Source: Escherichia phage Mangalyan
Sequence record: OR449013
Reading direction: 5' to 3' (one strand)
Length of the DNA: 64,000 bases
The notes beneath the pieces were generated by a model. The model did not search any database. It saw only the letters and a list, made by a program, of their open reading frames with translations, and was not told the DNA's origin. The position numbers were made by a program, and so were the translations under genes. Shown piece by piece: positions 2,502 to 60,458 of the stretch (its first letter is position 1; the number at the start of each line of letters is the position of its first letter).

Positions 2502-2507
2502 AATACT

Positions 2508-2840
2508 TTAAAGTGCTTCCAAGGTGGATACTGATGGGTCGAACATGTTCAACCTTATCGGATCTACAACTTTTCCGCTTTTAGAGACGATGTTTTCTGC
2601 ATCCTCGTCCAGAGCCAGAACGTTAACATAAAACAATTCACTTTTCTCGCAAACCGGGTAGACAACCATGTTGCCAAATTCATCTTCGGCCTCATAAGTG
2701 TCTCCAGTCTCTGTGTAAATGAACCCGACAACCTCTACAAGAAGGGTGTTTTGCAACACCTCATTCTCGTAAAAGCCGATTTCGTCCATGAAACCGTTAA
2801 AATCCTCCCTGTCAGTAAACCCAAGGGTAAAAGTATTCAT
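2508..2840 (-). CDS. hypothetical acidic protein (possible fibre assembly factor)
   Basis: 110-aa acidic ORF immediately 3' of the 1479-aa fibre gene. Confidence 0.4.
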   Translation of the reverse strand: MNTFTLGFTDREDFNGFMDEIGFYENEVLQNTLLVEVVGFIYTETGDTYEAEDEFGNMVVYPVCEKSELFYVNVLALDEDAENIVSKSGKVVDPIRLNMFDPSVSTLEAL

Positions 2841-5800
2841 TATTCAACACTCTCCATCATAAGCTGGGTGTCTGTCAGTGCAGAGTTCCAAACTCTTATG
2901 TCCTTAATATGACCAAATAAGTGTCTTTCACCTGTCGCCGTTTGACCACCAATGCGGATGAAAGCGCCTCCTGCTAGGAATTCCCAAGAAGACTGCGTTT
3001 CCGTGCTCACCAGTCCGTTAGCAAAAGAGCAGGTTTTACCGTCATCTTTTATCCTGAACCCAATTTTCAATTTACGGGCTTTAGCCATCTCGTAAACACG
3101 TCTGTTTGACCCTCCAATATCACAGTATGGATAACCGTCCTTCGCAATATTTGTTGCAGAGCCAAACCCCATGATAAATGCAGCACCGGATTGATGACCC
3201 TCTGTATCAATAACCCTAGGGGCTGCGTTAGGAGCTTTGCCCCAGCCTCTCCAGTTGGCATCAACCGTAGCGGCGATAGTGAATGGTCTGGGCGCTAGGT
3301 TATCCGTCATTGGGAATTTACAAAGATCTGCCGCCCTGGTTACAGGTGAAGACCCTGTAGGGATAAACGAGGACTCACAAGATCCCAACTCAAACTGAGG
3401 TATTGCAACGTCAACCCAATCCCCTACGGCATGTTGAGAACTCTCCGGCGGGGCAATCTGGAACTGGCAACCGATATTCCTGTCAGAGGACACTGCCTCA
3501 AACGTAGCAACAACCCTTATCCAAGCAGGTCCGGCTGTTTGCCATCTCTCAGCTTTTACTTTAATTCTCCCCGCTGCAACACCTGTTGTTTTAACTTCAA
3601 GTGTTGACAGGTTAACATAAGCATCACCTTGAAATGTTGTGGTGGATCCGTCGTACATGTCGAATCTTATACGTAATCTCCGGTTCGCTTTACCTCCCCT
3701 TGCAATAATAGACCCAGTACAGAATTTCTCAGCACCTGTTACATCGGCACCTCTGGTGGCTGGAACTGTAGCAAGGTTTAACGCTGTTGTTTCCACACCG
3801 GATGCAGTGTTTACTGTAAATCTTGCACCTTTTGTGCCGTTGGTGTTTGTCACAGTACCACCAACAGTAATCTGTTGACTGGCTCCCCATTTACTAGGGT
3901 CTTCACTGTTAAGCATTAGGTTTGTCCTTTGCCCTTCAATAAGCAGACCATCTCTTTCAAAACGTGGTTGGTTTGCTTGTGCAACAGCCATAACACCACG
4001 CTTAGTGAAATAGGTTGCTGTAGAAGGTCTGGAGAAGACCATCTCACCTTCACCCAGTGCAGGTTTTAGGTTAGAGGTTAAAGGCAACCACAAGTCAGGC
4101 ATAACTGGAGCGGTGGTGTTTTCTGGGAAGCTTGTTCTCTTCCAAGGGCTCCAAGCCATTCCGCTGCCAAGGTTATTGTAATACCTTTCCCATGTTCCAC
4201 CAAGATACATTTTATATATCTGGATACAACCTGTTCCTTCGTTAGCGGAGTTTCTAAGAACGATCAGCGTACCAGCCATCTGCTGCCCTGGTGGGTAATT
4301 TCTTTCCGCTGTGGCGTTGGCATTTGCCTCTTGATGGTAAATCCCTTCACGATCTGCCTTGTAGTCGTTAAGGTCATTAGTTCCCAACCCTTGACCACGG
4401 TGCTGAATAACTTTGTTCCACGCTCTGTGGTTTCCCTGCTCTATGGAACGAGTGTACAGCTGATCTAAACGACCTGCCATCTGGAAAGCGTAGTTTCCAG
4501 AAAATGCCACAGACAACCCACCAACAACCATCGATCCTTCAGGTCCGTTGACATTGCCTGCCATTATTTTAGAAGGGTTGTTATTCCCGAACTGGTTGTT
4601 CCAGTCTGCACCTGTGTGGCATACAAAACCACCTGGTGCTGAGAAAGTACCATCCTTGTTGAAGTTGTAGAATCTATGAGCTGTGCCTACAACATCGCGA
4701 ACAATAACTTGACCCGCTTCCGGAGTAGATCTGAACTCTGCCTGACCTTTGAGACCAGCACCATTACCGCATTTAGAGGTAAACGTACCGTTAGTCAGAT
4801 CCTCTGTCCCATCGGATGCACACTGGAATCCTGCATTAGAGAATAACGCCTTTCTAGGACTGCCGTAGCACAAATAGTCAAGACCGTCTGCCCATAGCTC
4901 GACTTTTGGCATATTCATTTTGCTCATCACAGCATAGCGTTCAGCAGAACCTATATAGTGCCACTGTGTGCCGCCACCAGTGTAGAATCCTGAAGTACCT
5001 TTGAAGTCAACAATAGGTCTGGTATTGGTGTTGTTATCTCCAAGAATAGCAAGATTCAAATCTGCTGATTGAAGAGGTGCAACGAACTTAACCCCATCCT
5101 GATTGTTTGTTACAGAGCCGACTTGATAATCTTGCTCTCTGGTAAACACTTCGACAACATTTCTACTTGCGTATATGCTGACAGGGAAAGCACGAGCCTC
5201 TGCATAGAAAGCAACATACTCTTGTTTACCCCTTGTTGGAGCAACCATCCCAAGAAGTGCTTTTTCATTCTGGTAGAAATTTACTACCCCGTAGAAAGAG
5301 TCTCCCCTGTCCGTCCAGCCGCCAGTTCTATAGTGACACTGCAGGGTGGCACAGTTCATAGGGTCATTTCCAGATGAAGACCTGGTGACTATAGTAATAT
5401 CTGTACCTGTCGAATGGGCGTAATACGGATCTGTTCTAACGATGATTGGGTAGTATTTCCCATCTTCCATTCCTGCAGTTCTTGGCAGTGTTAAGAAGTC
5501 TTTTACACCTGCTGCTATAGGAACTTTGAACAGATTCTGAGCATCTGCTAAAGTTGTAGCCCCGGTGCCACCTGCGGCTTGAGGTAGAGGTTCCCACTTG
5601 GCCTTCCGGTTGTTATAAACACCCCATTCCAGAGTGCCGTTACCGGATTCGTCCATCTCACCATCCCAGATAACCATCTTGGCGGCTTTCTTGGACCCCC
5701 AGAAGCCTCTTTCTGCTCCTGAACTACGAATCCACTCTCCAAGTCCCCAGTTTGTCAGCTGACCAGTAAGATCCCCAACCTGCATGTATTTAGGACAGTC

Positions 5801-38457: not shown

Positions 38458-39740
38458 TGCATCAAATCAAAACAACACTGTACGCACTGAACAAAGATGG
38501 CAGCTACCAACAGTGGAAAGTATTCACTGATGGCGAAAAGGTTATCGTAGAGTTTGGCAAGCTTGACGGTAAATTGCAGTACAAAGAGACGGTATGCACA
38601 CCTAAGAACGTAGGTCGTGCCAATGAGACTACAGCTGAGCAACAGGCCGAGCTTGAGGCTATCAGCAAGTGGGAAAAACAAGTCCGTCTGGGGTATGTTG
38701 AAAACATGGAAGATTGCGAGCAGGGTGTTGATCTTTTACCCATGCTGGTGCATGACTACCTGAAGCGTGGCAAGGCACTTAAACTACCTTGCTGGATCTT
38801 GCGTAAGTTAGATGGCCTTCGTCTGCTTGTTGTTTTCCAAAATGGTGAGCCTAAATTTATTTCCCGTGGTAATAAGTCCTACCCTATTCAAGGAAAGCTT
38901 TTAGAGCAACTTCGTTCTTTCCATTCTACCACTGGGATTAAACAACTTGATGGGGAACTATACATTCATGGTCTTCCTTTGCAGAAAATAGTGTCTCTTG
39001 CTAAACGGTGGCGCACACAGGAAGAGATTCAGGCCGAGATCGATAAAGACTATGAGGCAGATAAAAAACGCCGTCATGCCGCAATTAAGTCCGGCTTATC
39101 AACATACAAAAACTTCAACAAGGTAGATATTCCTGTCGATGTTGAGCCTGTTCGTGATGATTTGCGTTACGGTGGGTACTGTAGCTACGATCTGGAGTAT
39201 CACATTTTTGATATTCCTAGCGACAAGGTGTGGTGGGATCCCGAAACAGAGTCTGGACGCTGCAAGGATCTTATGGATGCAGAGGATACCGTTACCACTC
39301 TGATGCTTGACCATATCAAGGTTGTTGACGCAGAGCTTGCGTACACAGTTGATCATTGCGAAGAATCTGTTGGTATATTCATGTCCGAAGGATATGAAGG
39401 TACCATTATGCGTAACTTCTGTGGTAAATATGAGTACGGTCAGAGAACATCTGAAGCATTGAAATGGAAAAAGTTCAACGACGCAGAGGTGAAAGTTATT
39501 GACGTTGAGAAAGATAAGAATGATGAAGGTGTTCTTATCTGTGTTGACAAGGAAGGTATTGTTGTTAAAATGAAGATGAAAGGTACGCACGAGGAGCGTA
39601 GCTATGACAGAATGCAGGAAATGATCGGCAAGTTTGTCACCTTCAAATATCAAGCAAGGACAGAAGACAACAACTACCAATTCCCTGTCGGTATCTGCGT
39701 CCGAAATGTTAACCCAGACACTTGGGAGGTGCTGGAATAA
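38457..39740 (+). CDS. ATP-dependent DNA ligase
   Basis: Motif I LRKLDGLR (KxDG), motif IV EGTIMR, motif V LKWKKF; 427 aa. Confidence 0.7.
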   Translation: MHQIKTTLYALNKDGSYQQWKVFTDGEKVIVEFGKLDGKLQYKETVCTPKNVGRANETTAEQQAELEAISKWEKQVRLGYVENMEDCEQGVDLLPMLVHDYLKRGKALKLPCWILRKLDGLRLLVVFQNGEPKFISRGNKSYPIQGKLLEQLRSFHSTTGIKQLDGELYIHGLPLQKIVSLAKRWRTQEEIQAEIDKDYEADKKRRHAAIKSGLSTYKNFNKVDIPVDVEPVRDDLRYGGYCSYDLEYHIFDIPSDKVWWDPETESGRCKDLMDAEDTVTTLMLDHIKVVDAELAYTVDHCEESVGIFMSEGYEGTIMRNFCGKYEYGQRTSEALKWKKFNDAEVKVIDVEKDKNDEGVLICVDKEGIVVKMKMKGTHEERSYDRMQEMIGKFVTFKYQARTEDNNYQFPVGICVRNVNPDTWEVLE

Positions 39741-39882
39741 TTTAGGTATGTTTAGTAGCCAATTGAATAAGTGTTTTCAATTTGCACCTACATATGCCCT
39801 GATGTATGAACTGTGCAACCTAGCCACACCACACAGTGGTGCTGATCGGGGCTCGTTATGAGTGAACTGGAGAGTATGAAAA

Positions 39883-54821: not shown

Positions 54822-54975
54822 TAACAAACTGGCCGTTGTAAAACTCTCCTAACCTCATAAGAGGGGTCGGTAAATCCGGCTAACGGGGAACGCTAAGGCG
54901 AAAGCTATGCCAATCCCGTGACTAGTTCTTACAGGAGTTGGAACGGTTGTAACGACTAACGAAAGGCAGAGATGC

Positions 54976-55004
54976 TTGACAAACATTTCTGAACCAAGTA
55001 GTGT
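54976..55004 (+). promoter_or_regulatory. promoter-like element inside intron upstream of homing endonuclease ORF (TTGACA-17-TAGTGT)
   Basis: TTGACAAA motif as in other phage promoters here; weak -10. Confidence 0.35.
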
Positions 55005-55045
55005 AGGGGTTAGTTGAAATACTAACTTCGAAATGGAGAGGCTCT

Positions 55046-55579
55046 ATGAAAAAGATCATTCTTAATGGTGAAGAATCAAACTATGTGATTGATGAGGTTG
55101 GAAACGTATACGGAAAACGTGGAATGCTACACCCAATATTGTGGGGAGGTTATGGAAAAGGTAAAAAGCATGTTAAACGCCGTTATATGTACTCTTTCAA
55201 CCACAAAGGTAAAAAGATTCGAATCCAAACCTCAAGGATTGTTGCCTTGTATTGTTTGCCGGATGTCCCAGAAGACCCTGAAAACTGGGAAGTGAATCAT
55301 AAAGATGGCAATACATTGAATGATCATCCGTCTAACCTAGAGTGGGTTTTGCCGGAAGATAATAAGAGACATGCTTTCCGAACAGGACTTTGTCCAGGTA
55401 AGTGCTATAGGAAAGTGCAGGCATACAAAGGGAAAACCTTGGTGGGTGAATATCCTTCACTCTATGCCTGTGCAAAAGCCTTAAATTTGAACGTAGGTAA
55501 CGTTCATAGGGCTATCGAAGGAAATGCCGAAGGTAAGCATCTCACAATAAAGGGTTATTATCTTATTGAAGTAGAGTAA
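55046..55579 (+). CDS. HNH homing endonuclease (intron-encoded)
   Basis: VNHKDGNTLNDHPSNLEWV...EDNKRH HNH motif; GGAGAGG SD; stop abuts the intron S element. Confidence 0.7.
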   Translation: MKKIILNGEESNYVIDEVGNVYGKRGMLHPILWGGYGKGKKHVKRRYMYSFNHKGKKIRIQTSRIVALYCLPDVPEDPENWEVNHKDGNTLNDHPSNLEWVLPEDNKRHAFRTGLCPGKCYRKVQAYKGKTLVGEYPSLYACAKALNLNVGNVHRAIEGNAEGKHLTIKGYYLIEVE

Positions 55580-55639
55580 GAGATAGTCTGGCCCTGTGGA
55601 AACACAGGGAGGAGACAGCAGACTCCATTCATCACATTG

Positions 55640-56881
55640 AGTTTAGGACTGGATACCTCGGTCTTTGGTAGAATGATTACCAAAAACTACTTGAAAGTCC
55701 ACAAAATGGGTCTTGGTGAAGAACGTATTACACCTGTATTCCCTAAAGTGCTGTTCTTCCTGGAAGAGGGTGTTAACATGAACCCTGGGGATCCTAACTA
55801 TGATTTGAAACGATTAGCTCTGGAATGCTGTGCAGAACGTATCTACCCTGACTTCGTATCTGTACCACTAAATAGAAAAGTGACAGGCTCGACAGATGGC
55901 AAAGTAACGAGCATGGGTTGCCGGAGTTTTCTTAGCAAATATAATGACTTGGAAACAGGTGAGGAAAAATACCTTGGCAGATTCAACTTGGGTGTTGTTA
56001 GCCTTAACCTGCCAATGATTGCGGCAAAAGCTAAGACGGAAGGTGTTGATTTCTTTGCAGTTCTTGACGAATACTTGGATCTTGCATACGAGGCTCACCT
56101 TGTAAGGGTTAACCGTCTAAAAGGAACAAAGGCAGGGCAGAACCCCATCATGTGGTGTGAAGGCGCTCTTGCTCGCCTGGATCCTGAAGAAAGTATTGAT
56201 AAACTCTTCTATGACGGGTACGCTTCCATCAGCATTGGGTATATTGGTGTGTATGAAACCTGTCAGATTTTGGGCAGAGAGGGTGACAAGGCTTTAGCTC
56301 TTGGAATCCTTCAGCACATGAGAGATGCTTGTGAGCGATACAAGAAGGAAAGTAGACTAGCGTTTAGCTTGTACGGCACCCCTTCTGAGAGTCTATGCTA
56401 TAAAGCTGCAACCTGTCTGGATCGTGAATATCCTGAAGTGTTGAAGCACGAGCATGAATATCTCACCAACAGTTTCCATCAGCCAGTATGGATCAATAGC
56501 TCTCCTTTTGATAAGTGGGCGTATGAGGAAGGTTTTGCTATGATCTCCTCTGGTGGCAACATCGGATATGTAGAGACACCGAATCTGAAAAACAACTTAG
56601 ATGCTTTAGAGGCTCTTGTTGACTTCGGGTATAAACACATTATGTATTTTGGTATTAACCAACCTGTGGATAAATGTCTCAAGTGTGGTTTCTCTGGGGA
56701 GTTCAGTGCAACAGCTAAAGGCTTTGTATGCCCAGAGTGTGGAAACCATGAAGAGGGAACGATCAGTGTGATCAGACGTGTGTCTGGATACCTTTCCAGT
56801 CCTAACTCCCGTCCTTATAATAAAGGTAAGCAAGCGGAAGTTATCGAGCGAGTTAAGCACTATGGAAGTTGTAGTTGCTGA
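55640..56881 (+). CDS. nrdD: anaerobic ribonucleoside-triphosphate reductase, exon 2
   Basis: Glycyl-radical motif RVSGYL and zinc ribbon CLKCGF...CPECG; predicted 3' splice site after G at 55639 (P10 AGUUU / AAACU). Confidence 0.8.
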   Translation, partial: SLGLDTSVFGRMITKNYLKVHKMGLGEERITPVFPKVLFFLEEGVNMNPGDPNYDLKRLALECCAERIYPDFVSVPLNRKVTGSTDGKVTSMGCRSFLSKYNDLETGEEKYLGRFNLGVVSLNLPMIAAKAKTEGVDFFAVLDEYLDLAYEAHLVRVNRLKGTKAGQNPIMWCEGALARLDPEESIDKLFYDGYASISIGYIGVYETCQILGREGDKALALGILQHMRDACERYKKESRLAFSLYGTPSESLCYKAATCLDREYPEVLKHEHEYLTNSFHQPVWINSSPFDKWAYEEGFAMISSGGNIGYVETPNLKNNLDALEALVDFGYKHIMYFGINQPVDKCLKCGFSGEFSATAKGFVCPECGNHEEGTISVIRRVSGYLSSPNSRPYNKGKQAEVIERVKHYGSCSC

Positions 56882-56945
56882 TACTTGACAAAAGCCACAA
56901 GGATGTGGCACCATACAGATGTTTAGGGAAGTTAGGAAACAAGAG

Positions 56946-58079
56946 ATGGCTAAATTATCGACAGAAGAGTTTATAGAGAAGGCGAAAATCATTCACGGTT
57001 ATAAATACAATTACAAGAAAACAGTGTACGTGGATTGCTATGCGAAGGTTTGCATTACCTGTCAAATCCATGGAGATTTTATGCAAGCACCTTGTCAACA
57101 CTTGCAAGGTCGTGGTTGTCCTTTTTGTGCAAAACTTTCTCGTGCTACAAAGTGTAATAAAGGTCTTAAATTTGTAGAAAGAGCCAAAGAAATCCATGGA
57201 GATAACTATGACTACTCTCTCGTATACTACAAGACTTGCAAAGATAAAGTAGAAATAATCTGCAATACTTGTGGAAATCACTTTACACAGACACCTGACA
57301 ATCATATAAATTTGAAAAGAGGTTGTCCAGTTTGCAAGGGGTCAAGAATCTCACAAAGCAAAACCAAACCTCATGAAAAGTGGGTTGAGGACATAGAGAA
57401 GAAAAATACTTATATTGAAATATTAGAAGAGATCACCACTGGGTGGAATAAAGTATTATGTCGTTGCAAAGTTTGCAACCACGAATGGTCAGCTACGCCT
57501 GTTATCCTTAAGCGTGGTCACGGCTGCCCCGGATGTGGCGGATCTATGAAAAAGACCACTGAAGAGTTTATCCAGGACGCTGTGGCTATCCACGGGAACA
57601 AGTATGATTACTCTAAAGTGAGGTATGTGAATTCACACATCAAGGTTACAATTGTTTGCACAGATCATGGAGATTTCTGTCAATCCCCTACCCAGCATTT
57701 AGGAGGGGGAGGGTGTCCTAAATGCACCAAAAGAGGATTTTTATCCCACGATTGTGGTAAACTTTACATTATGGTTGATGATCCGGAAGTGCCTACATTT
57801 ATGAAAATAGGTGTCAGTCATAATGAAAGTAAGCGAAGAGACCAGATACTTAAAAGTGCACAAAGATCTGGAGCTGGTATCTGCGATCTGTACATAGTGA
57901 AAACGTTGGAAGGATCAACTGAAAACATGCTGGCTGTAGAAAAATCTATGCACAAAGCCTTCAGTAAATATAAAATAAACTTCCCTGTAAAATTTGATGG
58001 TAGCACCGAATTCTTCTACTACAGGCCTGAGGTGTTCAGCACAGTGGAAGCAGCGTACAAAGAGATCTGCGGTAAATGA
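56946..58079 (+). CDS. zinc-ribbon repeat protein with C-terminal T5orf172/GIY-YIG-like domain (putative freestanding homing endonuclease)
   Basis: Three repeats of HG-x-Y-x-Y...C-x-HG-F...GCP-x-C and C-terminal KLYIMVDDP...MKIGVS; located between nrdD and nrdG. Confidence 0.4.
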   Translation: MAKLSTEEFIEKAKIIHGYKYNYKKTVYVDCYAKVCITCQIHGDFMQAPCQHLQGRGCPFCAKLSRATKCNKGLKFVERAKEIHGDNYDYSLVYYKTCKDKVEIICNTCGNHFTQTPDNHINLKRGCPVCKGSRISQSKTKPHEKWVEDIEKKNTYIEILEEITTGWNKVLCRCKVCNHEWSATPVILKRGHGCPGCGGSMKKTTEEFIQDAVAIHGNKYDYSKVRYVNSHIKVTIVCTDHGDFCQSPTQHLGGGGCPKCTKRGFLSHDCGKLYIMVDDPEVPTFMKIGVSHNESKRRDQILKSAQRSGAGICDLYIVKTLEGSTENMLAVEKSMHKAFSKYKINFPVKFDGSTEFFYYRPEVFSTVEAAYKEICGK

Positions 58080-58131
58080 TCGTAGAAAGATACACATATC
58101 TTAAACATGCTATAAACTAAGGAGGTACAGT

Positions 58132-58248
58132 ATGTCTACAGGCATTTATAAAATTTGCAAGTGTGGTTGTCGTTGCAATCTTCGTTGGTGCAAGGCACTG
58201 GACGATTTTATTTGGCATTGTCCTGAATGCGATGCAGAGTACTTATAA
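58132..58248 (+). CDS. 38-aa cysteine-rich micro-protein (MSTGIYKICKCGCRCNLRWCKALDDFIWHCPECDAEYL)
   Basis: ATG preceded by AAGGAGG; 8 Cys in 38 aa; below track size cutoff. Confidence 0.4.
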   Translation: MSTGIYKICKCGCRCNLRWCKALDDFIWHCPECDAEYL

Positions 58249-58263
58249 GCATAAGGGGTCGAA

Positions 58264-58368
58264 ATGCGGAAATCTATCAAGAAAATCAAGATAAAATTGT
58301 TAGCACTGAAGCGTAAGTATAAAAAGTTATACGGCTTCATCAAATGGACTTTTATAAGTTTATCTTGA
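58264..58368 (+). CDS. 34-aa basic micro-ORF (MRKSIKKIKIKLLALKRKYKKLYGFIKWTFISLS)
   Basis: ATG with AAGGGG SD; may be non-coding. Confidence 0.25.
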   Translation: MRKSIKKIKIKLLALKRKYKKLYGFIKWTFISLS

Positions 58369-58399
58369 ATAGAAGCACACCACAGAAGAGAGGTTCCTT

Positions 58400-58636
58400 A
58401 TGGTAGGTGTCTGTGTAAAAGCTAACAGATGGTTTACATTCGGCAAGGATTACGAAATTATCTTTCATTCGGACAGAGCCACAACAGTAGAAAGCGATGA
58501 TGGGTGCTACTGGTTCGTTAGTTACCAGGGTGATGGGTATTATAGATCTACTGATTCCAGAGGGGAAGAAGCTGTTTTCTTAGATAGAGCTTATTGTGGG
58601 CCTGAATATCCCTACCTCAAAGAGGGTAAGGAATGA
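58400..58636 (+). CDS. hypothetical protein
   Basis: 78-aa ORF; stop overlaps nrdG start. Confidence 0.4.
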   Translation: MVGVCVKANRWFTFGKDYEIIFHSDRATTVESDDGCYWFVSYQGDGYYRSTDSRGEEAVFLDRAYCGPEYPYLKEGKE

Positions 58637-59106
58637 ATGTTGTTAATATTATAGAGTGTAGCATGGTTGACGGCCCAGGCATTAGGACAACGGTGTTCTG
58701 TTCTGGTTGTCCACATCACTGCGTTGGTTGCCAAAACAAAAGTGTTTGGTCACCCGCTAAAGGGGAACCGTTAACAAATGACACAATTGAGAGTATACTT
58801 CACTCTATAGAGCCGAAACATATTACTGGCGTTACATTATGCGGTGGCGAACCTTTAGCGCCTTACAATATCGATGGTATGTACTCGATCATTCTCGCTA
58901 TCCGTGAACGCTTCGGCAACACAAAAACTATCTGGGTGTACACAGGGTATTTGTTTGAAGAAGTCCCAGGTTATATTAAAGATAGTGTCGATTACATTAT
59001 GGATGGTAAGTACGAAAAAGATAACCCCACCAAAAAACCATTCAGAGGTAGTGATAACCAAAGAATGTTTAAAAAAGTATCAGGCGGTTGGGTTCAGGTA
59101 GACTAG
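58633..59106 (+). CDS. nrdG: anaerobic ribonucleotide reductase activating protein (radical SAM)
   Basis: CSGCPHHCVGC cluster motif; 157 aa. Confidence 0.8.
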   Translation: MNVVNIIECSMVDGPGIRTTVFCSGCPHHCVGCQNKSVWSPAKGEPLTNDTIESILHSIEPKHITGVTLCGGEPLAPYNIDGMYSIILAIRERFGNTKTIWVYTGYLFEEVPGYIKDSVDYIMDGKYEKDNPTKKPFRGSDNQRMFKKVSGGWVQVD

Positions 59107-59109
59107 CTG

Positions 59110-59139
59110 TTGACAAAGCTTTGTTTAGATAGGTATAAT
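59110..59139 (+). promoter_or_regulatory. strong sigma70-like promoter (TTGACA-18-TATAAT)
   Basis: TTGACAAAGC...TATAATTATCG, immediately upstream of the 59171 micro-ORF. Confidence 0.6.
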
Positions 59140-59170
59140 TATCGTAAAATGAAAGCAGAGGAGGTGCCAA

Positions 59171-59284
59171 ATGGCTAAAAAAGCCTTGAAGAAGGCGTAC
59201 AAAAAAGAAATTGCGCTTGAGCTCAAGAAAAAACACAAGCGTGAAAAGAAACATCATGAGGATGAAGAGGAGCTGCAACAGTGA
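59171..59284 (+). CDS. 37-aa highly basic micro-protein (MAKKALKKAYKKEIALELKKKHKREKKHHEDEEELQQ)
   Basis: ATG with AGAGGAGG SD directly downstream of the strongest promoter; stop overlaps next gene GTG start. Confidence 0.35.
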   Translation: MAKKALKKAYKKEIALELKKKHKREKKHHEDEEELQQ

Positions 59285-59631
59285 CACAAGAACGTATCGA
59301 TTTGGCTAATAAGTTTGTAGATCTCATTTTGCCACGGTTAGTTACTCAACATGCAGACGCTATTTCTACTAATCTTGATGGCTTACGCCTAATGCTGAAT
59401 CGCACAGATGACCCTCGCATTCGGGCTGATTTAGAAGCCTCTGCCAACAAACTGGAAAAGTTCTTGCAAGTAGATACGCAAGAAGCCTTACACAAGATTA
59501 TGGTGGAAGGTTTCTCTAAAGAATTTACCATTAAAGAGCTTAAGGAGCTGATCCACCAAGAAGAGATGAATATCCGAGTTCAGGCTGTTGCAAGCAGCAT
59601 GGAAGCGGCTATTGAAAAACTGTTGCAGTAA
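59281..59631 (+). CDS. hypothetical protein
   Basis: 116-aa ORF, GTG start. Confidence 0.4.
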   Translation: MTQERIDLANKFVDLILPRLVTQHADAISTNLDGLRLMLNRTDDPRIRADLEASANKLEKFLQVDTQEALHKIMVEGFSKEFTIKELKELIHQEEMNIRVQAVASSMEAAIEKLLQ

Positions 59632-59669
59632 AAGTACTTGGCACATCTCAATCTGAAAGGAGTCCCAAC

Positions 59670-60458
59670 ATGGGTCGAGCTAAAGAAACAAAACGCATGC
59701 GTGATGAAGCTAGAGAGGCTCGCAAATCTGATCGCCTGCGCAAGGCTGCTGAGAAATTTGCTGACGAAAGAGAGCACACCGCTCCAGCTCTCCGACCAAT
59801 GAATAAGAAGCAGCAAAAGTATCTTGATTATCTAGGGTCACGTAAGATTATCATTGTAAACGGTGTGTTTGGATCCGGTAAGACATTCATGGCATCTGCA
59901 TATGCAGGTGATCTTCTGCGTAAGAACGAGATTGATAAGATCATTGTTGCACGTCCTTACGTTCAGACAGGAAAGACTTCAGGATTTAAACCTGGAAATG
60001 CAATGCAGAAACTGTGGCCCTATCTTCGAAGCATGATGGACACGATTTGTCGTCGTGTTGGCAAAGGTGCTTTTGCCGCAATGCTGGGAGACGGTCAGAA
60101 CAGTCGTATCGAGATTTGTGAAGTTGAAAGCATTCGTGGTCGTAGTTTCGATGAGCGATGCTTTGTCCTGATTGACGAGGCACAGCAAACTAACCCTGAA
60201 GAAATGTTGTCAATTATCACAAGGATCTCTGATCAGGCCACCCTTGTAATCATGGGCGATAATAGCCAACGTGACATCCCTGGTAAATCTGGACTTGCAT
60301 GGGTGACGGATTTCTTTACTCGTCATCCAGATCCTGAGGTTGGAATGATCAGCTTTGATAGTCCAGACGATGTCGTTCGTTCCGGATTGGGTCGTCAGAT
60401 TGCACTCAATCTTATTGAGGATCGTGCAAATCATATTTGGACCCCTGTTTCCGAGTAA
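59670..60458 (+). CDS. phoH: PhoH-like ATPase
   Basis: Walker A GVFGSGKT, Walker B LIDEAQ; 262 aa. Confidence 0.8.
   Translation: MGRAKETKRMRDEAREARKSDRLRKAAEKFADEREHTAPALRPMNKKQQKYLDYLGSRKIIIVNGVFGSGKTFMASAYAGDLLRKNEIDKIIVARPYVQTGKTSGFKPGNAMQKLWPYLRSMMDTICRRVGKGAFAAMLGDGQNSRIEICEVESIRGRSFDERCFVLIDEAQQTNPEEMLSIITRISDQATLVIMGDNSQRDIPGKSGLAWVTDFFTRHPDPEVGMISFDSPDDVVRSGLGRQIALNLIEDRANHIWTPVSE

What the first reader, a model, noticed from the sequence alone, without database searches (positions are those of the whole stretch)
56946..58079. Triple zinc-ribbon repeat protein with T5orf172/GIY-YIG-like tail inserted between nrdD and nrdG
Three tandem ~95-aa modules each contain an HG-x-Y-x-Y...C-x-HG-F...GCP-x-C pattern, followed by a C-terminal segment resembling the GIY-YIG-related T5orf172 domain. 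It separates nrdD from its activase nrdG, a typical location for freestanding homing endonucleases, but the repeated zinc-ribbon DNA-binding array is unusual.
Basis: partly seen in the sequence, partly recalled or inferred. Interest (0 to 1): 0.45.

Follow-up and report, generated by a model that had tools for sequence, protein, structure and literature searches.

The report
Free-standing T5orf172 homing-endonuclease gene beside nrdD
This is an ordinary selfish nuclease gene: four zinc-finger DNA-binding modules joined to a GIY-YIG-type T5orf172 nuclease domain, sitting just after nrdD in an rV5-like E. coli phage, of a kind already described in the literature and annotated in related phages.

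Summary
The ORF is real (56946-58079, + strand, 377 aa; an in-frame ATG at 56919 would give 386 aa). The window is a Vequintavirus, an rV5-like coliphage.

- **Anatomy:** the protein has four, not three, homologous zinc modules of about 60-70 aa (DUF4379/DUF723/CapR-type treble clefs), followed by a T5orf172 domain.
- **Mobility:** compared with rV5, a 1204-bp cassette (56911-58114) replaces 16 bp, 29 bp after the nrdD stop codon. 92 of 119 related phage records have the uninterrupted empty site. About 26 carry a diverged allele at the same junctions, while the backbone stays 95-99% identical.
- **This allele:** it is a mosaic of two three-module alleles.

The homing-endonuclease reading is therefore supported by genomic signature only; no cleavage or homing was tested. 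The claim that the zinc-finger array is unusual is not supported. There are 1877 database homologues, matches in 1108 phage records, and a 2023 paper that describes this exact architecture. Relatives are already annotated "putative homing endonuclease" or "GIY-YIG nuclease family protein". Interest is low.

The parts
56946..58079 (+). CDS of the T5orf172-type homing-endonuclease-like gene (377 aa plus stop; the alternative in-frame start at 56919 gives 386 aa)
   Evidence: ORF list. Pfam DUF4379 plus T5orf172. PHROG 681 'endonuclease', E 4e-73. P0001 is 99% identical and 377 aa.
56958..57131 (+). Zinc module 1 (aa 14-71): helix, HGYKYNY, then CxxH...CxxC
   Evidence: Module alignment. AF2 gives a helix plus beta-hairpins at pLDDT about 90.
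57159..57338 (+). Zinc module 2 (aa 81-140): HGDNYDYS, then CxxC...CxxC
   Evidence: On its own it scores DUF4379 25.8 bits (cut-off 24.5) and DUF723 at E 0.005.
57366..57542 (+). Zinc module 3 (aa 150-208): variant without HGxxYDY; W..C..C.HEW...GCPGC
   Evidence: On its own it scores DUF4379 27.3 bits (cut-off 24.5) and the CapR homology domain at E 0.0012.
57552..57734 (+). Zinc module 4 (aa 212-272): HGNKYDYS, then CxxH...CxxC. Among the sequenced alleles compared, only JEP1 shares it.
57756..58034 (+). T5orf172 (GIY-YIG superfamily) nuclease domain, aa 280-372. Invariant residues are Y283, K296, G298, R306, E341 and E364 (386-aa numbering).
56911..58114 (+). The whole cassette: 1204 bp that replace 16 bp of rV5 (TATTGTTGGCACAGTG)
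   Evidence: blastn against rV5. Junction sequences.
56894..56909 (+). Conserved hairpin GCCACAAGGATGTGGC at the left junction, present in both occupied and empty genomes, preceded by TTGACA
55619..56881 (+). nrdD exon 2, bracketed by the intron-borne HNH gene on the left and the T5orf172 gene on the right
   Evidence: Pfam NRDD plus Gly_radical. Splice junction inferred from rV5.

Best explanation
This is a free-standing homing-endonuclease gene (HEG) of the T5orf172 branch of the GIY-YIG nuclease superfamily. The proposed mechanism is inferred by analogy with T4 Seg/Mob genes and with I-TevI, as follows.

1. The four N-terminal treble-clef zinc modules bind an extended DNA site, arranged like beads on a string.
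2. The tethered C-terminal GIY-YIG-like domain cuts nearby in the nrdD-nrdG intergenic region of a co-infecting vequintavirus that lacks the gene.
3. Recombinational repair from the HEG-bearing genome copies the cassette, and some flanking DNA, into the empty site.
4. The carrier genome is spared because the 16-18 bp found at empty sites is replaced by the cassette.

The window's allele arose by recombination between two three-module alleles. This added a fourth module and may have changed target specificity.

**Shown here:** domain composition, fold, conservation of the catalytic-position residues, presence/absence at one fixed site, allele mosaicism.

**Inferred:** DNA binding, cleavage, the target site and homing itself.
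For: 1. **Domains.** DUF4379 zinc fingers and T5orf172 both score above the Pfam cut-offs. PHROG 681 'endonuclease' scores E 4e-73.
3. **Catalytic-position residues.** In 377-aa numbering, Y274 (GIY-like 'LYI'), K287-I-G289 (YIG-like), R297, E332 and E355 are invariant in 39 homologues. The same residues are invariant across 7 locus alleles.
4. **Clean indel against rV5.** 1204 bp replace 16 bp.
5. **Same junctions in five alleles.** Every allele with the standard nrdD 3' end (window, WalterGehring, nom, JEP1, phiWec189) has the left junction ...GGATGTGGCA|, and six alleles including navn have the right junction |AACTA(A)AGGAGG. Five empty genomes carry a 16-18 bp filler instead.
6. **Sporadic occupancy.** 92 of 119 records have the uninterrupted empty junction. 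26 vequintavirus records match the nuclease-domain DNA, 24 of them over nearly the whole query.
7. **Alleles far more diverged than the backbone.** HEG DNA is 70-92% identical with only partial coverage, while the ORF at 59281-59631 is 98-99% identical.
8. **Mosaic allele.** The window resembles WalterGehring/nom at 56882-57361 and 57782-58021, and JEP1 at 57362-57781 and 58022-58133.
9. **Same allele in another flank.** The 99%-identical allele P0001 sits at the same site in 138.8-kb metagenome contigs whose downstream flank is the short variant.
10. **Literature.** T5orf172 HEGs with repeated CapR/DUF723/DUF4379 zinc fingers, often beside nrd genes, are described in PMC10448857. The T5orf172 protein Odn is reported there as a nuclease whose activity depends on the conserved Glu, and the Odn paper itself describes the E180A mutant and robust double-stranded cleavage (PMC8263062). 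[quoted passage not shown]
Against: - No cleavage, binding or homing was tested, and no target site could be derived.
- Homing by T5orf172 genes had not been experimentally verified for the ICP1 genes as of the 2023 paper.
- The second motif is KIG rather than YIG. Position R+4 in helix 1 (I301) is neither His nor Tyr, as was also reported for Odn.
- Residue equivalence to I-TevI rests on motif order and secondary structure, not on a residue-level structural alignment.
- No extended co-conversion tract that segregates with the HEG was seen in the immediate flanks.
Confidence: 0.8

Rival explanations
1. It is a weaponised nuclease like ICP1 Odn. The zinc-finger array would direct the T5orf172 nuclease against a competitor, such as a phage satellite or a rival phage or plasmid, rather than against an empty allele of its own locus.
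For: The best-characterised T5orf172 nuclease, Odn, works this way (PMC8263062). Domain swapping between HEGs and conflict genes is documented (PMC10448857). The nuclease-position residues are intact.
Against: - Odn's targeting domain is a RepA_N copied from its target. Here the array is the generic HEG zinc-finger type.
- The fixed-site presence/absence pattern, with several diverged alleles in an otherwise 95-99% identical backbone, is the signature of a homing element.
- No E. coli satellite target is known for it.
Confidence: 0.08
2. It is a domesticated or dual-function DNA-binding regulator, like CapR or I-TevI autorepression. It would bind near the TTGACA/hairpin region at its left junction and control transcription into the small ORF and nrdG, with nuclease activity lost or secondary.
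For: Module 3 weakly matches the CapR homology domain (E 0.0012), and CapR is a repressor derived from such HEGs. The cassette sits on a promoter-like TTGACA-18 nt-CATATT element of the empty site and removes its second hexamer; this is my reading of the sequence, and the scanner run on the window listed nothing at that position.
Against: CapR lacks the nuclease domain. Here the T5orf172 domain is complete, with invariant Y/R/E. 92 of 119 relatives manage without the gene. No operator-like repeats were identified.
Confidence: 0.06
3. It is an ancestral, non-mobile accessory gene of vequintaviruses that has simply been deleted many times.
For: Presence/absence alone cannot distinguish gain from loss.
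Against: - The five empty sites read share a conserved 16-18 bp filler rather than ragged deletion scars, and 92 records hold the junction uninterrupted.
- Alleles differ by up to about 57% at the protein level (P0070) and differ in module number, inside a 95-99% identical backbone.
- The same allele occurs with different downstream flanks.
- The window allele is a recombinant of two others.
Confidence: 0.05

Closest known systems
T5orf172-family putative HEGs with repeated CapR/DUF723/DUF4379 zinc fingers (Vibrio phage ICP1 and other phages; Barth et al. 2023, PMC10448857)
   Same: N-terminal array of related treble-clef zinc modules plus a C-terminal T5orf172 domain. Free-standing, next to essential genes including nrd genes. 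Repeats serve as recombination substrates that add or remove modules. Paired with a second HEG around a cargo segment ('HEG island').
   Different: A different phage lineage (Vequintavirus of E. coli). This particular allele has four modules and is a mosaic of two three-module alleles. ICP1 matches are only about 29% identical over part of the protein.
Allelic genes at the same locus in other vequintaviruses: WalterGehring bas51_0186 'putative homing endonuclease', SophiaRose_117 'putative GIY-YIG nuclease family protein', nom_106, JEP1_174, inoa_68
   Same: Same insertion site and junctions, same T5orf172 domain; 48-87% aa identity for the six aligned alleles.
   Different: The six aligned alleles have three modules (310-333 aa). 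SophiaRose has a 386-aa allele; it is probably the P0070 cluster (386 aa, 43% identical), but I did not align it or count its modules. No GenBank phage record matched the cassette query (56882-58400) over its full length at >=99% identity; the best was WalterGehring at 81% coverage and 91.9%. A 99%-identical copy exists in metagenome contigs.
T4 free-standing GIY-YIG HEGs (SegA-G), I-TevI, and T4 mobE between nrdA and nrdB
   Different: The domain order is reversed: the nuclease is C-terminal here and N-terminal in I-TevI/Seg. The DNA-binding part is a zinc-finger array rather than NUMOD/HTH modules. The motif is KIG instead of YIG, and there is no His/Tyr at R+4 in helix 1. MobE is an HNH enzyme.
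ICP1 Odn (Gp88), a T5orf172 nuclease (PMC8263062)
   Same: T5orf172 domain with conserved Arg and Glu and without the helix-1 His/Tyr. It provides the experimental precedent that this domain cuts DNA.
   Different: Odn uses a RepA_N targeting domain and attacks a satellite's replication origin. It is not at a polymorphic homing site.

Membership tests
Pfam T5orf172 (PF10544) | Whole-protein score above Pfam's gathering cut-off | tested here: met
   24.9 bits against a cut-off of 20; aa 282-372 cover profile positions 3-92 of 101. The related MUG113 model scores 21.5, just under its cut-off of 22.3.
GIY-YIG nuclease superfamily | Three-stranded sheet with flanking helices (beta1-beta2-alpha1-beta3-alpha2 fold) | tested here: met
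GIY-YIG nuclease superfamily | Conserved Tyr in strand 1, and Arg (helix 1) and Glu (helix 2) at the catalytic positions | tested here: met
   Y274, R297 and E332 (377-aa numbering) are invariant in 39 homologues. Their equivalence to I-TevI catalytic residues is inferred from motif order and secondary structure, not from a residue-level superposition.
GIY-YIG nuclease superfamily | Canonical second-motif Tyr ('YIG') and a His/Tyr in helix 1 | tested here: not met
   The motif is K287-I-G289, and position R+4 is Ile. The missing helix-1 His/Tyr was also reported for Odn, which is described as an active nuclease. This argues against a canonical GIY-YIG (PF01541) assignment, not against superfamily membership.
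GIY-YIG nuclease superfamily | Metal-dependent DNA cleavage | not testable with these tools
   Needs biochemistry.
DUF4379 / DUF723 / CapR treble-clef zinc-finger modules | Profile match, and a four-ligand Cys/His pattern in each module | tested here: met
   DUF4379 scores E 2e-12 with 3 stretches. Modules 2 and 3 pass the cut-off on their own. DUF723 (E 0.005) and CapR (E 0.0012) match below their cut-offs, and module 1 is recognised only through its 57% identity to module 4. Precomputed Pfam hits for P0001 list DUF723 twice. Zinc binding itself was not tested.
Free-standing homing endonuclease gene | Sporadic presence/absence at one fixed site among closely related genomes, with sharp junctions | tested here: met
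   92 of 119 records have the uninterrupted empty junction, and about 26 are occupied. The junctions are identical across alleles.
Free-standing homing endonuclease gene | The element is more diverged than, or incongruent with, the flanking backbone (horizontal spread) | tested here: met
   HEG DNA is 70-92% identical against 98-99% for the backbone. The allele is a mosaic. The same allele sits in a different flank context.
Free-standing homing endonuclease gene | The enzyme cleaves the HEG-less allele near the insertion site, and the carrier allele is resistant | not testable with these tools
   The only indirect point is that the 16-18 bp filler of empty sites is missing from occupied sites.
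Free-standing homing endonuclease gene | Super-Mendelian inheritance in mixed infection | not testable with these tools
   Needs phage crosses. This had not been verified for the ICP1 T5orf172 genes as of the 2023 paper.

The most novel reading that the evidence does not exclude
The window's allele is a recent natural recombinant: WalterGehring-type modules 1-2, JEP1-type modules 3-4, then a largely WalterGehring/nom-type nuclease domain. The recombination raised the zinc-finger count from three to four. If each module reads a few base pairs, this allele should recognise a longer or shifted target than either parent. It would then be a ready-made series (three-module parent A, three-module parent B, four-module hybrid, all at one locus in culturable E. 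coli phages). That series could give the first experimental demonstration of homing by a T5orf172 gene and show how module shuffling retargets it.
Probability: 0.3. Interest if true: 0.4.

Novelty: already known. Interest (0 to 1): 0.15.

Why it matters
It matters little for discovery. The gene class, its repeated zinc-finger architecture, its liking for nrd gene neighbourhoods and its module shuffling are published (PMC10448857), and alleles at this locus are already annotated as putative homing endonucleases.

Its modest value is practical:
- It shows that the nrdD-nrdG stretch of vequintaviruses is a hot spot for mobile nuclease genes, so differences there should not be read as functional divergence of the reductase genes.
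- The allele series in easily grown E. coli phages could be used to test whether T5orf172 genes really home.

Tried and rejected
- **PDB sequence search.** The whole protein gave nothing useful; the only hit was 2k53 at E 0.1.
- **NCBIfam.** No meaningful match.
- **Paralogues in the window.** tblastn of the protein against the 64-kb window found none.
- **Promoter/terminator scan and RNA fold at the left junction.** No convincing expression signals. The hairpin at 56894-56909 is no more stable than shuffled sequence (z -0.3) and looks like a terminator only on the minus strand.
- **Flanking polymorphisms.** I looked for ones that segregate with HEG presence (a co-conversion tract). Beyond one extra A in AACTA(A)GGAGG, none was seen in the sequences examined.
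- **A frame error of mine.** The scans of '58133-58249' were one base out of frame and should be ignored. The small ORF is 58132-58248 and has no Pfam match.
- **Reading considered and rejected: the array is unusual or new.** The homologue counts and the literature contradict it.
- **Reading considered and rejected: the gene interrupts an nrdD-nrdG operon junction directly.** Two small ORFs lie between it and nrdG.

Full report
**Identity of the window.** The stretch 53600-59700 matches 123 phage records at 90-99% identity, nearly all of them Escherichia phages of the genus Vequintavirus (rV5-like). The local gene order is nrdB, glutaredoxin, nrdD, the gene in question, small ORFs, nrdG, PhoH, then a ClpP-like protease.

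**The observation.**
- A single ORF runs from 56919 to 58079 on the + strand (386 aa).
It has an SD-like GGAAACAAGAG upstream. The 99%-identical public protein P0001 is 377 aa. Phage nom is annotated from that Met.
- Pfam finds DUF4379 ('probable treble clef zinc finger', E 2e-12, three stretches) and T5orf172 (24.9 bits against a cut-off of 20, aa 282-372).
- PHROGs places the protein in family 681 'endonuclease' (E 4e-73). Its N-terminal half also matches family 559, labelled 'HNH endonuclease'. Matches confined to this N-terminal region also fall on phage genes annotated as HNH endonucleases.
There are four modules of about 60-70 aa, at aa 14-71, 81-140, 150-208 and 212-272. Each is predicted as a helix followed by short beta-hairpins.
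- Modules 1, 2 and 4 carry HGxxY(D/N)Y; module 3 does not. From the sequence, the predicted zinc ligands are CxxH...CxxC in modules 1 and 4, and CxxC...CxxC in modules 2 and 3.
- Scanned separately, modules 2 and 3 pass the DUF4379 cut-off. Module 2 also touches DUF723 (E 0.005) and module 3 the CapR homology domain (E 0.0012). Module 4 is a weak DUF4379 hit. Module 1 has no hit on its own but is 57% identical to module 4.

**The nuclease domain.**
- An AlphaFold2 model built on 39 homologues is confident (mean pLDDT 89.4; pTM 0.49, as expected for beads on a string).
- The C-terminal domain has the order strand, strand, helix, strand, helix.
- Foldseek with the whole chain was uninformative.
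- Across the 39 homologues, the invariant residues are Y274, K287, G289, R297, E332 and E355 in 377-aa numbering; add 9 for the 386-aa form. The same residues are invariant among seven alleles of this locus.
- By motif order they correspond to the GIY Tyr, the (Y)IG motif, and the catalytic Arg and Glu of I-TevI. This is inferred, not superposed.
- The second motif is KIG, and there is no His/Tyr four residues after the Arg. The missing helix-1 His/Tyr was also reported for ICP1 Odn (PMC8263062). Barth et al. report that Odn's nuclease activity depends on the conserved Glu.

**Is it an insertion?**
- Against rV5, window 56911-58114 (1204 bp) replaces 16 bp, starting 29 bp after the nrdD stop codon.
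- In WalterGehring, nom, JEP1, phiWec189 and the window, the left junction is ...GCCACAAGGATGTGGCA|. In these and in navn the right junction is |AACTA(A)AGGAGG, the ribosome-binding site of a conserved 38-aa ORF.
- Five empty genomes (rV5, JES2013, ime, slur16, HdK5) carry TATTGTTGGCACAGTG or TATTATTGACACACAGTG there instead.
- A 141-bp probe across the empty junction is uninterrupted in 92 of 119 records.
- The nuclease-domain DNA is found in 26 vequintavirus records and in two lambdoid phages, mEp021 and mEp013.
- The alleles are far more diverged than their surroundings. HEG DNA is 70-92% identical with partial coverage, against 98-99% for the ORF at 59281-59631. Protein identities are 48-87% among the seven aligned alleles, with different module sets.
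- WalterGehring and nom have modules 1-2-3, JEP1 has 2-3-4, and the window has 1-2-3-4. SophiaRose has a separate 386-aa allele.
- In 60-nt steps, the window is 91-98% identical to WalterGehring/nom over 56882-57361 and 93-100% over 57782-58021. It is 91-98% identical to JEP1 over 57362-57781, and 88-96% over 58022-58133. It is therefore a recombinant of two three-module alleles.
- The same four-module allele (P0001) lies at the same site in 138.8-kb gut-metagenome contigs whose downstream flank is the short variant, in which the small ORF abuts nrdG.

**Interpretation.**
- Everything computable fits a free-standing homing-endonuclease gene: a modular DNA-binding part, a nuclease part with intact catalytic-position residues, a fixed polymorphic site next to a conserved essential gene, allele divergence out of step with the backbone, and recombination inside the repeats.
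- What is not shown is DNA binding, cleavage, the target, and homing itself.
- The literature gives precedents for two of the parts. The legend of CapR's gel-shift figure shows wild-type and quadruple Cys-to-Ser mutant protein tested on a probe containing its binding site (PMC8096241). Odn is a T5orf172 protein with reported double-stranded cleavage (PMC8263062).
- Barth et al. 2023 state that homing by the ICP1 T5orf172 genes 'has not been experimentally verified' (PMC10448857).

**Comparison with what is known.**
- Barth et al. 2023 (PMC10448857) describe T5orf172 HEGs enriched in several phage lineages.
- They found that 87% of the 229 surveyed carry CapR, DUF723 or DUF4379 zinc-finger domains (the paper also prints 'DUF4397'), often repeated, which they describe as 'beads on a string'.
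- They also describe in-frame repeat recombination and domain swapping between HEGs. They report HEGs clustering near essential genes, with nrdA/B/D among the neighbouring genes in their figures, and pairs of HEGs bracketing cargo as 'HEG islands'.
- The present gene fits all of these points, including the last. Together with the HNH gene in the nrdD intron, it brackets nrdD exon 2.
- The protein database holds 1877 homologues at E <= 0.001, many with longer arrays (500-670 aa) and other C-terminal domains. NCBI names close relatives 'GIY-YIG nuclease family protein'.
- tblastn finds matches in 1108 phage records from Vibrio, Escherichia, Salmonella, Klebsiella, Staphylococcus and other phages.
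- WalterGehring's allele is annotated 'putative homing endonuclease'.

**Rivals.**
- *An Odn-like weapon against a satellite or competitor.* This is possible in principle. However, the targeting part is the generic HEG array, and the population pattern is that of a homing element.
- *A CapR/I-TevI-like regulator.* The cassette sits on a promoter-like TTGACA-18 nt-CATATT element of the empty site, and module 3 resembles CapR. But the nuclease domain is intact, and 92 of 119 relatives lack the gene.
- *Ancestral gene with repeated loss.* The conserved filler at the empty sites read, the allele divergence and the mosaicism all contradict it.

**Verdict.** It is an ordinary member of a described class, and its interest is low. 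The only mildly new point is the four-module mosaic allele, which could serve as material for testing homing and retargeting in E. coli phages.

Noticed in passing
window 54822-55618 (ORF 55046-55579): nrdD is split by a 797-nt group I intron that rV5 lacks. Exon 1 ends ...CAACGGU, which can pair with intron GGCCGUUG (54832-54839) to give a U-G pair at the 5' splice site. The intron ends in G. The rejoined exons read VNG|QTP, as in rV5. Rfam Intron_gpI scores only 27.7 bits (cut-off 50, E 4e-4). The intron carries an HNH_3 / I-HmuI-NUMOD-like ORF of 177 aa. WalterGehring annotates the same join.
   Followed up: partly
window 58132-58248: A 38-aa Cys-rich ORF (MSTGIYKICKCGCRCNLRWCKALDDFIWHCPECDAEYL) with a strong AAGGAGG ribosome-binding site lies directly 3' of the HEG site in every vequintavirus locus read here. 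It has no Pfam match. The rV5 annotation 'gp109' (87773-88000) covers this region in what looks like the wrong frame. In phages with the short flank the ORF overlaps the nrdG start, which suggests translational coupling and perhaps a role with the anaerobic reductase.
   Followed up: partly
window 58249-58632, and nrdG 58633-59106: A segment of about 390 bp holding a 78-aa ORF (58400-58636; PHROG 3249, unknown function; labelled 'minor capsid protein' in rV5) is absent from nom, JEP1, navn, phiWec189 and SophiaRose. Its absence co-varies with a second, strongly diverged nrdG allele, of which only about 23% is alignable at the DNA level. The nrdD-nrdG stretch as a whole is a mosaic hot spot.
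   Followed up: partly
window 28062/28063: The rV5 terminase-large-subunit interruption (rV5 58832-59810, containing HNH endonuclease gp066; the CDS is annotated as a three-part join) is absent from the window. HEG and intron content therefore differs in both directions between the two phages.
   Followed up: no
window 2504-4472 and 38480-39817: Two stretches do not align with rV5 by megablast even though the flanks are 95-98% identical. One lies at the position of the gp041 tail-fibre gene: 1969 bp against 1011 bp in rV5. The other covers the ATP-dependent DNA ligase gene: 1338 bp against 1302 bp. These look like allele replacements rather than insertions.
   Followed up: no
L006 (phage navn) 4900-5523: In navn, a further ORF just after PhoH (navn_89) shares short DNA similarity with the HGxKYDYS zinc-module region of the window's gene. 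Vequintaviruses may therefore carry paralogous zinc-finger HEGs at other sites. No paralogue was found in this window by tblastn.
   Followed up: no
phage records MH706966.1 (mEp021) and PP180002.1 (mEp013): Two lambdoid E. coli phages carry DNA about 70% identical to the T5orf172-domain part of this gene. This hints at exchange of the nuclease module between unrelated coliphage lineages.
   Followed up: no
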